From contig OZ253548.1 of the NCBI GenBank assembly GCA_965262595.1, positions 859,740 through 923,739 on the forward strand: a stretch of 64,000 nt of DNA. Reading direction: 5' to 3'. Shown here piece by piece: positions 6,751-59,936 of this stretch (positions are counted from its first letter, which is position 1; every line of letters starts with the position of its first letter). The notes below the pieces were generated by a model that was given only the letters and a program-made list of their open reading frames with translations, had not been told where the DNA came from and made no database searches. Source of the DNA: Dehalococcoidia bacterium. Lineage in GTDB: Bacteria > Chloroflexota > Dehalococcoidia > Lucifugimonadales > UBA3495. The position numbers were made by a program, and so were the translations under genes.

Positions 6751-8442
6751 TCACCCAAACAACTCCCCAATCTCCCGCTCCAACCGTTCCTCCGCTGTTT
6801 CCCCGGGCCGGACTTCTTCCCGCCGGCTCACCCCTGCCCGGCTGCTCAATAGAGCGTAAGATTCGGCAGTGCCATAATCTCGTGTATGCACCACCACGGG
6901 CATTGGTACGGCATGACCGAAAATCAGGGCTTGTTGCTTGGATTCCAACCGGGCTAACACGCCGCGCAGTTGTCGGCTTCCTGAAGCGCCCGACAACACG
7001 GCGTCAATATCCCGATCGTTATCCAGCAAACAAGTCAACCGAGTTCCCAATTGGCTCATCACCTCCTCATCTATGCCGCTGGGCCGCTGGTCGATGACCA
7101 TCAGTGTGACGTTATATTTTCGCAACTCGCGGGCGATGATTCCGAATATGGTTTGCGGAGCCACCGAGGGACTAAGGAACTTATGTGCCTCTTCAATTAC
7201 TATAATTAGCGGACGGGGTTCCTTGCCTCGGCCGCCCTCTGCCTCTTCTTTCAATTCAACGTACCGCTGGTGAATCCGGCGAGACAAAAGGTTGCTTACC
7301 AGGATGTATGCCGTCAGGTCGTTTCCGTACCGACCGAATTCAAGAACCACGTGCTGGCCCCTTTCCAGGTGTTCAATTATCTTTGCGGCGGTATTGTAGC
7401 GGTCGCCCTGTTTCAGAAATTCGTACCGGCGCAGGCGGCTCAGCCGGTTGTGCAGCGTCGCCAGGGCCGCCACGTTCACGTTCAGATCCCTGGCCAGCTC
7501 GTTAATATCCGGGGCTTCCAGGAACTGACCCATCCAGTTTCTTCCAAAGTGCTGCTGCAGATTATAGGCCGCAGCGGCGGCTACATCAGAGAGATTGAAT
7601 GTTTCCCGCAGCAGCTCCACATCTTCCGGCTCGATTTCCTCGTAACCGATTGTGGCAACCTCATCGGGAGATGAACCACGGCGGCGGGAACTCTCTTCAT
7701 CGAGAGTAAAAGTTGAAACCCGAGACGGAAACAATTGCTTCAAACCCTTAACCTGTAGGTTATGGTCGGTATCCTGACCGCTCCAGCCGTACTCACTGTG
7801 CATGTCAAAAACCAGGGACGACGCCGTTCCGCCCTGAAGAATGCCCACCAACAACAGGCGGGTCAAAAAGGTCTTGCCGGTGCCGCTTTTGCCGAACACG
7901 CCAATCGAGCGTTTCACCAGTTCGTCCAGATCCAGGCAGACTTTAGTATCCATATCCAGGGGACTGCCAATCCAGAAATGACGCTCGTCATCCTTGCCAA
8001 AAACCAGTTCCACGTCTCGAGCCGAAGCGGGATAGGCCGGTGAGAAATGGGAAGGAATGGTTTTGGCGGCTACCGGGCTTTCATCGCCGCCGGCCACCAA
8101 GGGCATGGTCAGATTGGGTAAGGCCGACACCGTACCGTAGGCCACCGGGCCGGAAATTATTTGGGACAGGAGCGGGTCAACTAAGTCCGGGGGACTATGC
8201 CTCAACCTGGGATCGGAACTGTTTAGCTGCAGGTCGGTAACGACACCAAAGAAGCGGTACTTGCGGCCTTGAATGGTCACGAAGGTACCCACTTTGACAT
8301 CTTCGATCAGCGTTTCCCCGGAGGGATCGAGGCGAATCTCCACACTCTGGCCCAGGGAACCCCCGACGACCAGACCGAAGGGCGGAGTTCCGGGAATAAA
8401 ACCGTCACTGGAGTTGCCGTTAGAGCCAAAACCGTCCGTCAT
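6751..8442 (-). CDS. HerA/FtsK-superfamily ATPase (DUF87-like) with an N-terminal HAS-barrel
   Basis: Walker A is GVFGKSGTGKTFL and Walker B is LIIVIEEAHKFL. Also present are LMVIDQRPSGIDEEVMSQLGT and an N-terminal barrel-like segment, GLVVGGSLGQSVEIRLD...VKVGTFVTIQGRKYRFFGVVTDL. Its ATG overlaps the TGA of the upstream gene (ATGA at 8439-8442), and GGAGGG lies 7 nt upstream. Confidence 0.75.
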   Translation of the reverse strand: MTDGFGSNGNSSDGFIPGTPPFGLVVGGSLGQSVEIRLDPSGETLIEDVKVGTFVTIQGRKYRFFGVVTDLQLNSSDPRLRHSPPDLVDPLLSQIISGPVAYGTVSALPNLTMPLVAGGDESPVAAKTIPSHFSPAYPASARDVELVFGKDDERHFWIGSPLDMDTKVCLDLDELVKRSIGVFGKSGTGKTFLTRLLLVGILQGGTASSLVFDMHSEYGWSGQDTDHNLQVKGLKQLFPSRVSTFTLDEESSRRRGSSPDEVATIGYEEIEPEDVELLRETFNLSDVAAAAAYNLQQHFGRNWMGQFLEAPDINELARDLNVNVAALATLHNRLSRLRRYEFLKQGDRYNTAAKIIEHLERGQHVVLEFGRYGNDLTAYILVSNLLSRRIHQRYVELKEEAEGGRGKEPRPLIIVIEEAHKFLSPSVAPQTIFGIIARELRKYNVTLMVIDQRPSGIDEEVMSQLGTRLTCLLDNDRDIDAVLSGASGSRQLRGVLARLESKQQALIFGHAVPMPVVVHTRDYGTAESYALLSSRAGVSRREEVRPGETAEERLEREIGELFG

Positions 8443-27229: not shown

Positions 27230-27812
27230 AAGTGGAGGGAACCAGGAAAACCTGTAAGCCGGGTTCTGTATCCCGCCGGCGTTGCCGCGCCGCCAAAAAG
27301 TATTGGCGGTGTGCACCGGACGGGCGGTGACCATCTATCTAGCCCCCAGGCGGTAGTCTTGAGGCTACCGTCCGGCCCAGCGCGCCAAAATGGCGCCGGA
27401 CAACGTTGCCGTCAGGGTCAAGCAGCCAACCCGGGGACGAGCCGGACGCCCATAGTCCCCCTATTCGGCCTTGCTCCAGGTGGGGTTTAGCCGTCGCTGT
27501 GTCACCACAGACGACCGGACGCTCTTACCGTCCGATTTCAACCTTACCGCCGGATTTACCCACTCCCGTTGTTCTGCTGAAAAGCGATCGGAAATGCCAT
27601 AGAGTTTTTAGACTTTTCGGCCATTGAGGGGAGCAATAGAACCCGGAGGCGGTATGTTTCTGTGCCACTATCCGTCCCCTGAGGCAACAGCTAAGTCGCC
27701 ACAGGAGCCTGGGCGTTACCCAGCACCCTGTCCAGTGGAGCCCGGACTTTCCTCCCCAAAGAGGTTGCCCCCAATGCGGCGGTCACCCGGTTCGCCTGGC
27801 CTCTCCAGCCGC
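27230..27812 (-). ncRNA. rnpB: RNase P RNA, bacterial type A, unusually long (ends approximate)
   Basis: The reverse complement contains GGAGGAAAGTCCGGGCTCC (27756..27738) and GGCTAAACCCCACCTGGAGCAAGGCCGAATAGGGGG (27492..27457). It also contains ACAGAACCCGGCTTA (27269..27255). A P1-like pairing joins GGAGAGGCCAGG (27806..27795) with CCTGGTTCCCTCC (27246..27234). Confidence 0.9.
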
Positions 27813-34639: not shown

Positions 34640-35905
34640 CTACAAATTGGGCAACACGTCGGTTAGCTTGGAAATGTCCTCCCAACGCCGGCCCCGTCCT
34701 TCCCGTCGGTCGCGGGAAGTGGTCATCATGTTAGCCGCTTCCCGGTAGAACCATTCGATCCGGTCCATTGCCTTTCCTTCACCAATGTTGGAAAGGATGG
34801 CGGTAACGCTGATGGTATCTGAGGTCCGACCGGGGTAAGTTCCCTTACGACGCCCGGCCCCGGGTACACGCTCAGCGAAGGTGTTATCCATCATCTCTAC
34901 AATCTCTGCGGTAGCCTCGTTGGGGGGGCCGCTGAAGAGGCCAAGAACGTGCTGGGCGTCGTAGAGTATTTTCCCCCTTTCGTCATAGTCGCAGTCCAGG
35001 GAAAGCTCGGCCAAAGCCTGGGTAACCACATTTTGGGCCCGCTCGATCTGGGCCTTGGACACGGAAAAGTGCTGCTGAACCCGATCGTGATTAGTGCGGA
35101 TGCGGCCAAACCAGGAACCCGATTTCCTGGTTTCAGGAATAGCGGCATGGCTGACGCCAATTACGGTTGGGCCCCGGAGGATACGGATAACGTCATTGGC
35201 ATCAAGAACTTCGCCAATATAGCGGCGCTCAGTTTCCTCGCCAACACACAGTATGTCCATGAAAGAATCAGCGATCTTCCGATTGATGGTAGCGTAGTTC
35301 AATCCCATCGCGTCTTGCTTGCGGGCGAACTTCTGGTTATCGACCAGGAACACCGCGTCGGCTTTGGAGTTATCGAGCACCTTCTTCAAACAGGTTGCCG
35401 TGTTTATGACGCTGTCCGGTTCGTCGTATTGGTTCTCGAACGGCAATACCAGCATCGCGTAAACCGGCTTTTTGAATTCATCCTTTAGCAGGTCAACGAT
35501 CACTCCCACCGAGCCGGAGCCGGTTCCGCCGGCGGTAGTGGCGATTACCAAAATGGCGTCGGCGGAGTAAACGTCCCCATGATCCCGGATAGTTGACGCA
35601 ATTTTGCGGGAATCGCGCCGGGCCTGTTCGGCGCCATCGGCGTTCACTTTTCCAGCGCCCCGGCCCCTAAATTCATCCGTTGAGCCCAGCAAAATTGTGT
35701 GGTCATCAGTCTGGGGTATATGCTGCAGCGCATAAAGGTCACCGGCGCCCAGATTAACCGCAAAAACGCCGCTGGAAATCGGGTCGGAATCCGAACCGGT
35801 GAACAGCCGCACCCGCCGGTTAGCCCAAACCCAATGACCCAGCGCAACAAATTCATCCGCAATGTTAGAACCACCTTGTCCAGTGCCTACAATAACGAGC
35901 TTCAT
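34640..35905 (-). CDS. tubulin/FtsZ-superfamily GTPase, CetZ-like
   Basis: MKLVIVGTGQGGSNIADEF is the T1 loop, and ILVIATTAGGTGSGSVGVIVDLLK is the tubulin signature (A/G)GGTGSG at aa 125-131. LVDNQKF and a second domain (VLDANDVIRILRG..., LFSGPPNE...RKGTYPG...VTAILSNI) are collinear with my recollection of Haloferax CetZ1. AAGGAG lies 6 nt upstream of the ATG. Confidence 0.75.
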   Translation of the reverse strand: MKLVIVGTGQGGSNIADEFVALGHWVWANRRVRLFTGSDSDPISSGVFAVNLGAGDLYALQHIPQTDDHTILLGSTDEFRGRGAGKVNADGAEQARRDSRKIASTIRDHGDVYSADAILVIATTAGGTGSGSVGVIVDLLKDEFKKPVYAMLVLPFENQYDEPDSVINTATCLKKVLDNSKADAVFLVDNQKFARKQDAMGLNYATINRKIADSFMDILCVGEETERRYIGEVLDANDVIRILRGPTVIGVSHAAIPETRKSGSWFGRIRTNHDRVQQHFSVSKAQIERAQNVVTQALAELSLDCDYDERGKILYDAQHVLGLFSGPPNEATAEIVEMMDNTFAERVPGAGRRKGTYPGRTSDTISVTAILSNIGEGKAMDRIEWFYREAANMMTTSRDRREGRGRRWEDISKLTDVLPNL

Positions 35906-45301: not shown

Positions 45302-46321
45302 CTATTCCACGACCACTTGCTCATCCATCAGTACGCCACCCTCCCGGTAGGCAATCGAAATGGGGTCGCGCAACAGGGCGGCCTGTATTGCCTCGATGGG
45401 CATAGTACGGGGGCTGCCCGGAGCGACAATCCGGCGCACCGCGTTGCGGTTGGCTACCCGACCTTCGGCGGCATTGCCCTGAGCCTGGTTGCGCCCTCCC
45501 GTCACGTTCATGCCCACCTCCACCCTCAAATCTGAAGCATCCCCGACTCCCTCCAAGGGCAGCAGGCGGCTCAGGGTAGTCGCCGTGGAGGCGGCCCAGC
45601 CGGCCTGGGCGGTGGGGAATGGCGGCGGCACCCAACCATCGGAACTGTGGCCGGCCAGCAGTGTCCACCGGCTGGTATGGGTCAGGTTTTGGGTGGTGAC
45701 GTAAACCTTGGCCTCGCCCTCTTCCTGCATCCCCCCATTTTCGTCGTATTCCTTGGTGTCCAGCAGATAGCTGCCGTGCACCGTACCCGGCATTATCGTC
45801 GGGAGGTTGCCTTCCAAAGGCTGAAGACCCTCTGGGGCCGGAGAAGCGGCGGTTATTTCGCCGGACAACCACTGTACCTCATCTTCTACCACCATTGCGC
45901 CCTTGGTGAGGGCCTGCCCCACGGGACAGAAGCGGGCGGCGCGCTGTAGCCGGACTCGCTCCGTCTCGGAGAGATTACCCTTCAGTCTGACCACTTCCCG
46001 GACGCCAAAACCGATGGAACCGGCGCGCTCAATCGGCTCAACCTCGAAGTCAACTTCGATGTTTTCCAAGGGAATGCCACCACGGTAGGCGACGCCTACC
46101 ACCGTGACCACCGTTCAAGCAGCCCAGCCGGCCACCGCCAAGTACTGCGGCGGTGGGCCGCTAAGGTCCGAACTCAGGTTGGGAATGCCGGTTACGAAAG
46201 GCCAGGGGCCCCGGTTGCCGGCGCCAGCGCCAATCAGGGTAAGAACCGTGTCCTCGCCCACCGGACGGGAGATGATGCTTCGTTGGGGCTGGGAAGCGTT
46301 GGCATTATTAGCTTGAGTCAT
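45302..46321 (-). CDS. tandem OsmC/Ohr-like protein, predicted selenoprotein (UGA at 46117..46115 read as Sec)
   Basis: Track ORFs 46115..46321 and 45302..46111 share one frame and are separated only by TGA: ...PPPQYLAVAGWAA-U-TVVTVVGVAY.... The second Cys motif, AARFCPVGQAL, is retained. GGAGGGG lies 5-6 nt upstream of the ATG at 46321. The second half repeats the fold with GWAAST and LLRDPIS. Confidence 0.7.
46078..46106 (-). promoter_or_regulatory. candidate bacterial SECIS hairpin
   Basis: The mRNA CACGGUGGUAGGC-GUC-GCCUACCGUGGUG starts 9 nt after the UGA. It has 12 pairs (2 G-U) and 1 mismatch. The apical loop contains G and begins 21 nt after the UGA. Confidence 0.6.
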
Positions 46322-46391
46322 AAGGCCCCTCCGTTTAATGTATTGGGATTGAGTTCACTATAGTTGGGCAGCAGCAAAAGCGTCAACCGGA

Positions 46392-58230: not shown

Positions 58231-59301
58231 GTGATCGGATTGGTTGAAATCACTAGGGTAAACTGGGGCAATGTATTTGAGGCGATTGAGCGCTGCTACG
58301 AGTTAGGCTGGACCGACGGGCTACCGGTGGTTCCCCCAACGGAGGAGCGGGTCGGCGAGTTTCTGAACCGCGCCGGACGGGATGCCTCGGAAGTAGTAGG
58401 AGAGTTACCGGAACGCCGCCGCCAAATAACGGCGGAGAAGGTCGCAGCCAATGCGGTGATGGCGGGGTGCCTTCCCGAATATCTGCCGGTAGTGCTAGCC
58501 GCCACTGAAGCTATGTTAGCTCCGGACTTCAACCTGGTCGGGCCGTCCTCGAGCATGGGCGGCGCGGCGGTACTGATAATTGTTAACGGCCCGGTGGCCC
58601 GGGACTTGAACATCAACGCCCGAAATAACCTTTTCGGCCCAGGCAACCGGGCTAACGCCACTATCGGACGAGCGCTGCGGCTGGTCTTGATGAACGCTTG
58701 CGCTGCTATACCCGGACTGTTCGACCGCAGCGTCATCGGACATCCTGGCAAGTTCACCTATTGTATTGCCGAAGCGGAAACGGAAACTCATTGGACGCCA
58801 CTCCACGTGGAACGAGGATTCGCCCCGGAGCAAAACGCCGTCACCGTTTTCGCCGCCGAGGGCCCCCGGCAAGTTCGGTCGGTCGGACACCCGGAAGCGA
58901 TTTTGTACTCCATTGCCGACGCAGCCTCTTCCTTGGGCACCTCCCTTTCCACGTCCGGTTCGGTAGGTGACCCGGCCCAGGGAATACGTCAGGGCGAGAT
59001 TGTAGTTACCATCGCCGGTAGCAGCAACCTTTGGCAGGAATGGAGCAAGGACGACATCAGGGACTACCTGTACCCCAGAATCCGTCGTTCCGTCGCCGAC
59101 CTAAAGAGTGCGCAGGTCTTCGCCGGTGATCTGGAACCCGGGGACGAAACCCGGTTTATGACCCTCATCCCGGAACCCAAGGACATTATGGTAGTATTTG
59201 CCGGCGGCGAGGAATCCAATATGTCCTCAGTGATTCCAAGTTGGGGACCAAAGGTTTCCTCGGCAGCCGTAACCCGAGAGGTCCGTCTCGCCGGCAGCTA
59301 A
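58231..59301 (+). CDS. hypothetical conserved protein upstream of the UGSC gene
   Basis: 356-aa ORF with a GTG start. The motif YELGWTDGLPVVPPTEERV and a Cys-containing MAGCLPEYLPVV are present. No family name recalled with confidence. Confidence 0.5.
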   Translation: MIGLVEITRVNWGNVFEAIERCYELGWTDGLPVVPPTEERVGEFLNRAGRDASEVVGELPERRRQITAEKVAANAVMAGCLPEYLPVVLAATEAMLAPDFNLVGPSSSMGGAAVLIIVNGPVARDLNINARNNLFGPGNRANATIGRALRLVLMNACAAIPGLFDRSVIGHPGKFTYCIAEAETETHWTPLHVERGFAPEQNAVTVFAAEGPRQVRSVGHPEAILYSIADAASSLGTSLSTSGSVGDPAQGIRQGEIVVTIAGSSNLWQEWSKDDIRDYLYPRIRRSVADLKSAQVFAGDLEPGDETRFMTLIPEPKDIMVVFAGGEESNMSSVIPSWGPKVSSAAVTREVRLAGS

Positions 59302-59354
59302 GAGTTTCACCGGCGCCACGGGCTAAACAACCGTTCCTGGAGGGTAAGCAATTT

Positions 59355-59936
59355 ATGTCAACCAGCACAAATAATGGAAGCGACAACGGAAGGGAATACA
59401 ATCTGGTAAATCCTACTACCGAGCCGATAACCGCTCCTTTTGATGGCGCCCCTCGGCTAATTACCATGGCCGGGACCCGGCTCGGACTCATCGACGATAG
59501 CAAGCGTAACGCCGATGTGCTCTTGGAAGAGCTGGCCGAAACGCTGCGCACCCGGTACGAAATTGCCGAGGTGAAATGGCACCGCAAGCCAAGCGCGTCC
59601 CGCCCCGCCGACCCGGCGGCCATCCAGGAATTGGCCCGGGACTGCGACTCGGTGGTAATCGCAATAGGCGATTGAGGCTCCTGCAGTGCGTGCAGTGTGC
59701 ACGACGGCATTCATGTGGAAAAGGCCGGACTACCCTCAGCCACGATTTGCACCGATCGGTTCACTCAAACCGCGTCCGCCATGGCAAAGATGTGGGGAGC
59801 GGCCGATTACCCGACCATTTTCACGGAACACCCTATTGAGAACCTGAACCGCGAACAGTTGCGCCAGCGGGCGGAAGAATTGGCCCGACAGGTGGTTGCT
59901 ATCCTGACCGGCGACGGCCCGAATAGCGTCTCCTAA
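59355..59936 (+). CDS. UGSC-motif protein, predicted selenoprotein (UGA at 59673..59675 read as Sec)
   Basis: Track ORFs 59241..59675 and 59697..59936 are in one frame: ...CDSVVIAIGD-U-GSCSACSVHDGIHVEKAGLPSATICTDRF.... That gives a U-x-x-C redox-type motif. The ATG at 59355 has GGAGGG about 12 nt upstream. Confidence 0.65.
59676..59703 (+). promoter_or_regulatory. candidate SECIS region with two alternative short hairpins
   Basis: One hairpin is CUGCA-GUGCG-UGCAG (59681-59695). The other is CGUGCA-GUG-UGCACG (59689-59703). Both have G-containing loops; the loop of the second begins 19 nt after the UGA. Confidence 0.4.

What the first reader, a model, noticed from the sequence alone, without database searches (positions are those of the whole stretch)
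59355..59936. Second in-frame UGA gene: a UGSC-motif (U-x-x-C) putative selenoprotein with a conserved upstream neighbour
**Seen in the sequence**
- ORFs 59241..59675 and 59697..59936 share a frame. Joined across the TGA at 59673-59675 they read ...ARDCDSVVIAIGD-U-GSCSACSVHDGIHVEKAGLPSATICTDRF....
- Sec would be the first residue of a CxxC-like dyad, the usual place for Sec in thiol-oxidoreductase-type selenoproteins.
- The likely real start is the ATG at 59355 with a GGAGGG RBS. That gives 193 residues.
- Two mutually exclusive short hairpins with G-containing loops lie 5-28 nt after the UGA. This is weaker than the OsmC case.

**Established knowledge**
- I recall RefSeq using the name UGSC family (seleno)protein for roughly 190-aa proteins with exactly this motif. 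I cannot verify that here.

**Inference**
- The 356-aa gene ending 54 nt upstream (58231..59301) is probably a functional partner. It carries the motifs GWTDGLPVVPPT and AGCLPEYLP.
- The biochemical role of this pair is, as far as I know, uncharacterised.
- Two Sec candidates in 14 kb suggest a selenoprotein-rich organism in which standard ORF calling systematically splits genes.
Basis: partly seen in the sequence, partly recalled or inferred. Interest (0 to 1): 0.65.

Follow-up and report, generated by a model that had tools for sequence, protein, structure and literature searches.

The report
UGSC selenoprotein gene with conserved partner
The in-frame UGA at 59673 is very likely a real selenocysteine codon in a member of the already known UGSC selenoprotein family, and the gene always travels with, or is fused to, an uncharacterised 353-residue partner that gives a handle on the family's unknown function.

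Summary
Reading 59355..59936 through the TGA at 59673-59675 gives a 193-residue protein. It passes the curated cut-offs of NCBIfam NF041046 (UGSC family (seleno)protein) and Pfam PF24696.

All 159 related genes read at the aligned position carry TGA (80 SAR202/Dehalococcoidia genomes, 4 diverged contigs, 75 metagenome loci). The protein stays conserved after it.

A 6-bp hairpin with a GUG loop lies at 59689-59703. It puts G and U at positions 23-24 from the U of UGA. Its six codons are the only ones after the UGA with no synonymous variation (81/81). In distant homologs the stem shows compensatory changes while G23 and U24 stay invariant.

The upstream gene (probably 58240..59301, 353 aa) is a true partner:
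- It is adjacent in 80/80 SAR202 loci.
- It is adjacent, in reverse order, in Actinobacteria that carry Cys forms.
- It is fused to UGSC in both orders.
- It is sometimes fused to a ferredoxin:thioredoxin-reductase-like domain.

The partner matches no Pfam, NCBIfam or PDB entry. UGSC is predicted flavodoxin-like, not thioredoxin-like.

The Sec machinery could not be checked. The biochemistry is inferred. Verdict: a new member of a known family.

The parts
58240..59301 (+). Partner gene, 353 aa from TTG 58240 (356 aa if GTG 58231 is used). Uncharacterised family with no Pfam or NCBIfam model. Near-invariant Cys80 (TGC 58468-58470) and Cys178 (TGT 58762-58764), numbered from 58231.
   Evidence: Adjacent to UGSC in 80/80 SAR202 loci. 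Adjacent in Actinobacteria. Fused to UGSC in 31 of 149 family representatives.
59339..59344 (+). GGAGGG ribosome-binding site, 10 nt before the ATG of the UGSC gene.
   Evidence: Read directly. A public gene call starts at the same ATG (P0002).
59355..59936 (+). UGSC-family selenoprotein gene, 193 residues including Sec107, stop TAA.
   Evidence: NF041046 162 bits against cut-off 125; PF24696 197.8 bits. tblastn runs through the TGA in 80 loci.
59673..59675 (+). UGA read as selenocysteine (Sec107), first residue of U-G-S-C-S-A-C. Cys110 is 59682-59684 and Cys113 is 59691-59693.
   Evidence: TGA at the aligned codon in 81/81, 3/3 and 75/75 genes. Cys occupies this position in actinobacterial homologs.
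59689..59703 (+). SECIS apical hairpin CGUGCA-GUG-UGCACG. The loop is 59695-59697, so G23 and U24 count from the U of UGA.
59688..59705 (+). Block of six codons (GCG TGC AGT GTG CAC GAC) with no synonymous variation in 81 sequences. GAT at 59670-59672, just before the UGA, is equally fixed.
   Evidence: These are the only 7 single-codon columns among 99 conserved degenerate columns.

Best explanation
59355..59936 is one gene for a UGSC-family selenoprotein. The ribosome reads UGA 59673-59675 as selenocysteine. A SECIS hairpin 14 nt downstream (59689-59703) presents G and U in its loop at the distance at which the Sec-specific elongation factor SelB binds in the E. coli fdhF paradigm (this last comparison is from my own knowledge, not tested here).

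The protein is predicted to be a small flavodoxin-like alpha/beta domain. Sec107 lies at the end of the third strand and Cys110 at the start of the next helix, a geometry suited to a reversible selenylsulfide.

It works as the small subunit of a two-part system with the product of the upstream, co-transcribed gene (58240..59301). That partner belongs to a large uncharacterised family with a near-invariant cysteine (Cys80) at a helix N-terminus and a second conserved cysteine (Cys178).

The most likely mechanism is inferred, not shown. UGSC shuttles reducing equivalents as a selenol/thiol couple to or from the partner's cysteines. Electrons enter from a disulfide-reductase-type donor, which in some lineages is a ferredoxin:thioredoxin-reductase-like domain fused to the partner. 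The system probably serves catabolism of organic (carboxylic) acids.

My probabilities: about 0.95 for 'real Sec gene of the UGSC family', about 0.85 for 'obligate partner or complex', and about 0.4-0.45 for the redox-relay mechanism.
For: **Family membership**
- NF041046 scores 162 bits (cut-off 125) and PF24696 scores 197.8 bits.

**Sec codon**
- TGA sits at the aligned codon in 81/81 SAR202-type genes, 3/3 diverged genes and 75/75 metagenomic genes.
- Cys occupies this position in actinobacterial homologs.
- The protein is conserved on both sides of the TGA.
- TGA is an ordinary stop in this lineage: 84 of 496 ortholog stops and 3 of 31 in the window.

**SECIS**
- Only codons -1 and +5..+10 are single-codon among 99 conserved degenerate columns.
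- Across 73 distinct diverse sequences, the loop G and U are invariant even though that codon encodes Ser, Cys or Gly.
- The five core pairs are at least 98% paired. Pair types seen are UA/GU/UG at one position and CG/GC/UG at another.
- The covariation score is 0.151 against 0.070 +/- 0.008 in shuffles (0/500 reach it). With partners slid by 1-3 columns, 15-49% of cells pair, against 82.6% in register.
- RNAalifold predicts the same stem on its own.

**Partner**
- It is adjacent in 80/80 SAR202 loci.
- Five UGSC-partner pairs in reverse order, each overlapping by 4 nt, occur in four actinobacterial genomes; a sixth lies on an unnamed metagenome contig (L083).
- Of 149 family representatives, 26 are UGSC-partner fusions, 4 are partner-UGSC fusions and 2 carry an FTR-like (FeThRed_B) domain, one of which is also a UGSC-partner fusion.
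- Of 80 metagenome loci, 78 hold both domains.
- Cys80 is kept in 143/149 representatives and Cys178 in 134/149.

**Transcription**
- Metatranscriptome contigs at about 96-97% identity run from the partner's 3' end across the spacer and past the UGA.

**Fold**
- The model of a Cys-form homolog (pLDDT 85.8) places the redox residue at the strand-3/helix-3 junction.
Against: - No selA, selB, selD or tRNA-Sec lies in the window or the fetched loci. Sec machinery in this genome is therefore assumed, not shown.
- The hairpin is no more stable than shuffled sequence (z = +0.26, -0.55, +0.75).
- Covariation is modest. Four pairs have two-sided changes, which shuffles reach in 61/500 trials. The tool warns that related sequences can beat shuffles without any structure.
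- Nothing shows a physical complex or any redox chemistry.
- Two fused UGSC domains (P0320, P0324) have lost both Sec/Cys and the resolving Cys. Two others keep only the first Cys. UGSC redox activity is therefore not needed in every family member.
- The third Cys of U-x-x-C-x-x-C is not conserved family-wide.
- The partner has no recognisable catalytic fold.
Confidence: 0.85

Rival explanations
1. The TGA is a true stop. The locus holds a 106-aa gene and a separate 79-aa gene, or a decaying pseudogene or a sequencing error, and no selenocysteine is inserted.
For: Public gene callers report the 106-aa fragment (P0002). TGA is used as a normal stop in this lineage. Sec machinery was not found in the DNA available.
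Against: The same in-frame TGA occurs in 159 independent genes, with strong protein conservation on both sides. Cys-form homologs are single uninterrupted ORFs. RNA-level constraint sits exactly after the TGA. The curated family models span the stop.
Confidence: 0.02
2. UGSC is a free-standing thiol/selenol oxidoreductase, and the upstream gene is only a syntenic neighbour with no functional link.
For: Within SAR202 the whole neighbourhood is syntenic: NHL 74/80, Trm112 69/80, SDR 63/80. Adjacency inside that clade therefore proves little. Two UGSC copies lack an adjacent partner: L085, and L171 on a short contig.
Against: Adjacency survives between phyla with the gene order swapped and the genes overlapping by 4 nt. 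Gene fusions occur in both orders.
Confidence: 0.05
3. The pair is a two-subunit non-redox enzyme, for example an iron-sulfur hydro-lyase built like class I fumarase, tartrate dehydratase or aconitase X. The partner's Cys80/Cys178 and the UGSC Sec/Cys would then bind a metal or cluster rather than cycle between reduced and oxidised forms.
For: The layout is large subunit plus small subunit, fused in either order. U-x-x-C-x-x-C resembles a cluster-binding motif. Class I fumarate hydratases are among the weak Foldseek hits of the partner (E 6.5e-3). Neighbours in metagenome and actinobacterial loci are rich in carboxylate transporters (TctC, TRAP), CoA-transferase III, aconitase and MmgE/PrpD.
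Against: Foldseek TM-scores are only 0.22-0.25. Profile comparison of either protein with E. coli FumA is not significant (P about 0.5). No Pfam hit to Fumerase, DUF521 or DUF126 appears even at E <= 10. Only two cysteines are conserved in the partner. The UGSC Sec/Cys is missing in some fusions. Fusion to a disulfide-reductase-type FtrB domain points to thiol redox chemistry.
Confidence: 0.12

Closest known systems
UGSC family (seleno)protein (NCBIfam NF041046, Pfam PF24696); 'UGSC-containing protein' of Zhang and Gladyshev (GOS analysis, PMC2398784)
   Same: Passes both curated models. About 190 aa, U-G-S-C motif, mostly Sec forms in aquatic bacteria and Cys forms elsewhere. That paper already noted a fusion to a conserved domain it called 'Unknown_1'.
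   Different: Nothing about the protein itself differs. This is a SAR202/Dehalococcoidia member. Added here: the exact SECIS, a predicted flavodoxin-like rather than thioredoxin-like fold, and the extent of the partner linkage. I could not verify that 'Unknown_1' is the partner family, because that figure panel is an image.
Bacterial SECIS element (E. coli fdhF paradigm: apical hairpin with loop G23/U24, bound by SelB)
   Same: A hairpin a fixed distance after the UGA, inside the coding region. G and U lie at positions 23-24 from the U of UGA. The stem is kept through compensatory changes. The fdhF numbering is from my own knowledge.
   Different: 6-bp stem with a 3-nt GUG loop (a 5-nt UGUAU loop in other clades). 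No conserved bulged U is evident. No Rfam family matches at gathering threshold. SelB binding is untested.
Selenoprotein B of glycine/sarcosine/betaine reductase (GrdB/F/H) and PrdB of D-proline reductase
   Same: Same U-x-x-C-x-x-C spacing as GrdB/F/H. There is a weak sub-threshold match to TIGR01917/TIGR01918 over model positions 331-410 (query 92-171), a stretch that contains Sec107. Both act with a separately encoded larger partner.
   Different: 17.7 bits against a cut-off of 602, and no Pfam GRDB hit. The partner shows no match to the GrdE/PrdA proprotein family. The third Cys is not conserved across UGSC. The organisms and operons are aerobic-type catabolic ones, not Stickland fermenters.
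Ferredoxin:thioredoxin reductase catalytic chain (PF02943) / FtrB family double-selenoprotein (NF041072)
   Same: In some lineages a domain of this type is fused to the partner, alone or together with UGSC (P0360, P0339). It marks the likely electron-entry module.
   Different: It is not present in this window. The NF041072 matches are below cut-off (75-81 bits against 160).

Membership tests
UGSC family (NF041046 / PF24696) | Scores above the curated cut-offs of the family models over the full domain | tested here: met
   NF041046 162.1 bits (cut-off 125), profile 2-147/147. PF24696 197.8 bits (cut-off 25), profile 2-171/172.
UGSC family (NF041046 / PF24696) | Sec or Cys followed by G-S-C (U/C-G-S-C) after a beta-strand ending in G-D | tested here: met
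   IAIGD-U-GSC in the window. The same motif occurs in 81 + 3 + 75 homologs. Actinobacteria have CGSC.
Bacterial selenoprotein gene | In-frame UGA kept in orthologs, Cys in some homologs, coding conservation downstream | tested here: met
Bacterial selenoprotein gene | SECIS hairpin immediately downstream, conserved as RNA | tested here: met
   Synonymous-site invariance. Invariant loop GU and compensatory stem changes. Folding energy alone is not significant.
Bacterial selenoprotein gene | The genome encodes selA, selB, selC (tRNA-Sec) and selD | not testable with these tools
   None lies in the 64-kb window or the fetched loci. A second Sec-type gene (OsmC) in the window is indirect support.
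Thioredoxin-fold oxidoreductases (as the earlier literature guessed for UGSC) | Thioredoxin fold with the redox motif at the N-terminus of helix 1 | tested here: not met
   The AF2 model of Cys-form homolog P0013 (pLDDT 85.8) is a five-strand parallel beta/alpha sandwich. In the Foldseek list the best hits are GTPases, the GH3 alpha/beta domain, flavodoxin-like proteins, CheY-like receivers and PTS IIB, at TM 0.29-0.46. No thioredoxin-fold protein is among the 50 matches listed. The redox motif does sit at a helix N-terminus.
GrdB/PrdB selenoprotein B family | Match to TIGR01917/TIGR01918 or Pfam GRDB at family threshold | tested here: not met
   17.7 and 15.2 bits against cut-offs of 602 and 65. 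No GRDB hit at E <= 10.
GrdB/PrdB selenoprotein B family | U-x-x-C-x-x-C motif | tested here: met
   U-GS-C-SA-C in the window. The motif definition comes from PMC6778437 and PMC13188914. The third Cys is not universal in UGSC.
GrdB/PrdB selenoprotein B family | Paired with a GrdE/PrdA-type pyruvoyl proprotein | tested here: not met
   The partner has no Pfam or NCBIfam hit at all.
Class I (Fe-S) hydro-lyases / Toblerone-fold cyclic amide hydrolases (for the partner) | Significant sequence-profile or structural similarity | tested here: not met
   Best Foldseek E 2.6e-3 with TM 0.22-0.25. hhalign against E. coli FumA gives P about 0.5. The PDB sequence search is empty.

The most novel reading that the evidence does not exclude
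UGSC and its partner, with an FtrB-like module in some lineages, form a widespread two-component Sec/Cys-dependent enzyme that has not been described. There are at least 6,289 clusters at 50% identity. The large subunit has a fold not represented in the PDB. The system acts in catabolism of carboxylic or aromatic acids in SAR202, Actinobacteria and many uncultured bacteria. That would assign a function to one of the most abundant aquatic selenoprotein families.
Probability: 0.3. Interest if true: 0.7.

Novelty: new member of a known kind. Interest (0 to 1): 0.42.

Why it matters
UGSC proteins are among the most abundant selenoproteins in ocean and freshwater metagenomes (PMC2398784), yet reviews up to 2026 still list them as uncharacterised (PMC13188914).

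This locus adds three things:
- A precise, comparatively supported SECIS. It can be used to annotate these genes correctly in SAR202 genomes, where gene callers currently split them.
- Evidence that the protein is not thioredoxin-like.
- A clear experimental route to function. The obligate partner has conserved cysteines. Natural fusions include a ferredoxin:thioredoxin-reductase-like domain. Cys-form pairs also sit inside IclR-regulated catabolic operons of cultivable Actinobacteria.

The partner family is large and has no Pfam or NCBIfam model, which is an annotation gap.

Tried and rejected
- **Rfam:** The gathering scan of the window found only RNase P and one tRNA, and no SECIS family.
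- **PDB sequence searches:** Nothing for either protein.
- **Partner fold search:** No match at E <= 1e-3. The Toblerone-fold and class I fumarase hits have TM about 0.22 and were not accepted.
- **hhalign against E. coli FumA:** Not significant for the partner or UGSC profile, so that lead was dropped.
- **Lower SECIS stem (59676-59683 with 59705-59712):** No covariation beyond shuffles, so not claimed.
- **First hairpin (CUGCA/UGCAG, 59681-59695):** Rejected as the functional element, because the fixed synonymous sites lie outside it.
- **Folding-energy z-scores:** Not significant.
- **Genome-wide UGA reassignment:** Rejected, because TGA ends many orthologous genes.
- **Identity of 'Unknown_1' in PMC2398784:** Could not be verified. 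The panel is an image and the stored sequence file is truncated.
- **Search for Sec machinery:** Nothing found in the window or loci.

Full report
**1. The observation**

The sequence is as described. ORFs 59241..59675 and 59697..59936 are in one frame. Translating 59355..59936 gives a single internal stop, the TGA at 59673-59675, in the context ...RDCDSVVIAIGD-U-GSCSACSVHDGIHVEKAGLPSATICTDRF....

ATG 59355 lies 10 nt after GGAGGG (59339-59344). A public gene call used the same start for the 106-aa fragment P0002. The full product is 193 residues.

The upstream ORF carries the quoted motifs. Its near-identical homologs are 353 aa and begin MVE... GTG 58231 lies inside an AGGTGA Shine-Dalgarno-like sequence. 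The true start is therefore probably TTG 58240.

**2. Family**

With Sec written as Cys, the protein scores 162.1 bits on NCBIfam NF041046, 'UGSC family (seleno)protein' (cut-off 125). It scores 197.8 bits on Pfam PF24696 UGSC.

The family has been known since the Sargasso Sea and GOS analyses. In GOS it had 255 Sec forms against 21 Cys forms and ranked among the top selenoprotein families (PMC2398784). Reviews from 2022 and 2026 still list it without a function.

**3. Is the UGA a Sec codon?**

- A scan of one genome per species found 276 relatives. The best 80 are all Dehalococcoidia, SAR202 or Chloroflexota MAGs.
- In all 80, plus the window, the aligned codon is TGA and the motif [AG][IV]GD-U-GSCSACSVHDG is kept.
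- tblastn alignments run through the stop to residues 179-193 at 71-90% identity.
- Three more diverged genes (58-69% identity) also have TGA.
- So do 75 of 75 alignable genes from diverse metagenomes.
- Actinobacterial homologs have Cys at this position in uninterrupted ORFs.
- UGA is not reassigned in this lineage. It terminates 84 of 496 orthologous genes in the SAR202 loci and 3 of 31 verified genes in the window.

**4. SECIS**

I examined 99 codon columns where the amino acid is conserved and the codon is degenerate. Only seven use a single codon in all 81 sequences. They are the GAT before the UGA and the six consecutive codons GCG TGC AGT GTG CAC GAC at 59688-59705.

These codons form the hairpin C17-G31 ... 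A22-U26 with loop G23 U24 G25, counting from the U of UGA (window 59689-59703). All the third-position sites of these codons that lie within the hairpin are either paired with each other or are the loop U. The overlapping first hairpin does not explain this pattern.

The diverse metagenomic set gives 73 distinct sequences in which the downstream residues differ (SSGS, TSCC, VSCS, TTCS and others).
- The loop G and U are invariant, although that codon encodes Ser, Cys or Gly.
- The five core pairs are at least 98% paired. Pair types seen are UA/GU/UG and CG/GC/UG.
- The covariation score is 0.151 against 0.070 +/- 0.008 in shuffles (0/500 reach it).
- Pairing is 82.6% in register against 15-49% when the partners are slid.
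- RNAalifold finds the same stem independently.

Caveats:
- The folding energy is not better than for shuffled sequence.
- A lower stem has no support.
- The count of pairs with two-sided changes is not significant by itself.

G23/U24 is the position of the SelB-contacting loop bases in the E. coli fdhF SECIS. That statement is from my own knowledge.

Reads add an independent sign. In metagenome and metatranscriptome assemblies, depth rises 10- to 80-fold over about 59600-59760. Many contigs with unrelated flanks meet there. The core is therefore shared at nucleotide level by several different UGSC genes in one sample.

**5. The partner**

- The upstream gene is present, on the same strand, in 80/80 SAR202 loci.
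- Synteny inside that clade is generally high, so the informative evidence comes from outside it.
- In Modestobacter (two tandem pairs), Thermocatellispora, Saccharopolyspora and Pseudonocardia, and on an unnamed metagenome contig (L083), a Cys-form UGSC gene is followed by a 349-364-aa gene that overlaps it by 4 nt. For the Modestobacter and L083 copies, identity to the window's partner was measured at 35-39% (E about 1e-56 to 1e-58).
- A profile of the partner finds 6,289 clusters at 50% identity with E <= 1e-3.
- Of the 149 best representatives, 26 are UGSC-partner fusions. Many of these begin just after the Sec codon, as expected for Sec forms cut by gene callers.
- Another 4 are partner-UGSC fusions that end exactly at the Sec codon, and 10 are tandem partner duplications.
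- Two carry a ferredoxin:thioredoxin-reductase catalytic-chain domain (one of them is also among the 26 UGSC-partner fusions). Its best NCBIfam match is the 'FtrB family double-selenoprotein'.
- In 80 metagenome loci, 78 hold both domains. 15 of these are fused and 60 are adjacent within 300 nt. This set is biased, because the query was itself a fusion.
- Metatranscriptome contigs span the partner's 3' end, the 53-nt spacer and the UGA. No terminator-like site lies between the two genes.

**6. What the two proteins look like**

The partner has no Pfam or NCBIfam hit even at E <= 10 and no PDB sequence relative.

Its AF2 model (pLDDT 75.9, pTM 0.81) has no Foldseek match at E <= 1e-3. The best matches are Toblerone-fold amidohydrolases and class I fumarases, at TM 0.22-0.25.

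Near-invariant partner residues include D29-G-L-P32, A78-G-C80, R140, N142, R147, E181 and W188. Cys80 is kept in 143/149 representatives and Cys178 in 134/149. In the model, Cys80 precedes helix 82-95.

The UGSC model was built on Cys-form homolog P0013, because the tool would not accept U->C. It is a parallel beta/alpha sandwich. The redox residue lies after strand 3 and the resolving Cys lies at the start of helix 3. Foldseek hits are generic flavodoxin/Rossmann-like folds, not thioredoxins.

A weak sub-threshold match to GrdB and the shared U-x-x-C-x-x-C spacing are leads only. Membership in that family fails.

**7. Mechanism**

Shown by comparative evidence: a Sec codon with its SECIS; a small redox-motif domain; and a partner tied to it by conserved adjacency and by fusion.

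Inferred: UGSC cycles between a selenol/thiol form and a selenylsulfide form and exchanges with the partner's cysteines. Electrons are supplied by a disulfide-reductase-type module.

Context suggests catabolism of organic acids.
- Actinobacterial operons combine a PaaK-like CoA ligase, Zn-ADH, ALDH, a luciferase-like monooxygenase, SDRs, Amidohydro_2, IclR and a peptide-type binding protein.
- Metagenome neighbours are enriched in TctC and TRAP transporters, CoA-transferase III and LysR/IclR regulators.
- The window has thiolase, GMC oxidoreductase, VOC, an NHL propeller and an SDR around the pair.

Against a universal redox role: some fused UGSC domains have lost the Sec/Cys pair.

**8. Not testable here**

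Sec machinery could not be assessed. A second Sec-type gene in the window gives indirect support. It is an OsmC-like gene on the minus strand with its TGA at 46115-46117, and its PF02566 match (38.5 bits, cut-off 27.5) spans the Sec.

**9. Verdict**

This is a correct call of a known selenoprotein family in a new host lineage. The added value is the exact SECIS, the corrected fold, and a well-supported but still uncharacterised partner.

Noticed in passing
window 45302..46322, minus strand; TGA at 46115-46117: Second selenoprotein candidate. Read-through gives a 339-aa protein whose OsmC domain (PF02566, 38.5 bits against cut-off 27.5) spans the Sec, in the motif AGWAA-U-TVVT. A long C-terminal extension has no Pfam match.
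   Followed up: partly
window 34640..35905, minus strand: A tubulin/FtsZ-family protein with a CetZ-type C-terminal domain (PF00091 + PF21011). CetZ is regarded as archaeal, so its presence in a Chloroflexota/SAR202-like genome is unexpected.
   Followed up: no
whole window and loci L001-L080: Stop codon usage is dominated by TAG. It is 20 TAG / 8 TAA / 3 TGA in the window and 283 / 129 / 84 in orthologs, which is unusual for a 57% G+C bacterium. The TGA ending the HerA-like ORF (6751-6753, minus strand) is followed in frame by 270 more codons.
   Followed up: partly
window 27239..27798, minus strand: The RNase P RNA (class A) match covers 560 nt for a 367-position model. This implies about 190 nt of insertions.
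   Followed up: no
L015 5222..5896 (about 15 of the 80 SAR202 loci have a similar gap of about 700 nt): In L015 a DUF1326 gene (PF07040, 125 bits) with a CNCDWGCPC motif is inserted between the partner and UGSC genes. The other loci show a similar-sized gap, but their gaps were not inspected.
   Followed up: partly
L171 626..715 (protein P0001; P0003 is similar): A UGSC homolog has CGA (Arg) where Sec should be, and AGC where the following Gly should be. It still keeps the SECIS core GCGTGCAGTGTGCACGACGG. No partner gene is adjacent on this short contig. This may be a decaying copy or an Arg variant.
   Followed up: partly
window about 59600..59760, in runs X1, X13, X19: Assembly depth rises 10- to 80-fold. 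Many contigs with unrelated flanks begin or end here. The Sec/SECIS core acts as a nucleotide-level repeat shared by several UGSC genes in one sample and breaks assemblies. The runs with transcripts are sponge metatranscriptomes, which suggests a sponge-associated source.
   Followed up: partly
proteins P0339, P0360, P0293 (relatives, not in the window): Partner-family proteins fused to an FtrB-like domain (PF02943; best NCBIfam match is the 'FtrB family double-selenoprotein'). One UGSC-partner fusion has a weak NifU-like N-terminal domain (E 0.005).
   Followed up: partly
L081 8001..13256 (Modestobacter roseus): Two tandem UGSC + partner pairs separated by two SDR genes. They are followed by a 76-aa ORF with no Pfam match and are preceded by an IclR regulator.
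   Followed up: partly
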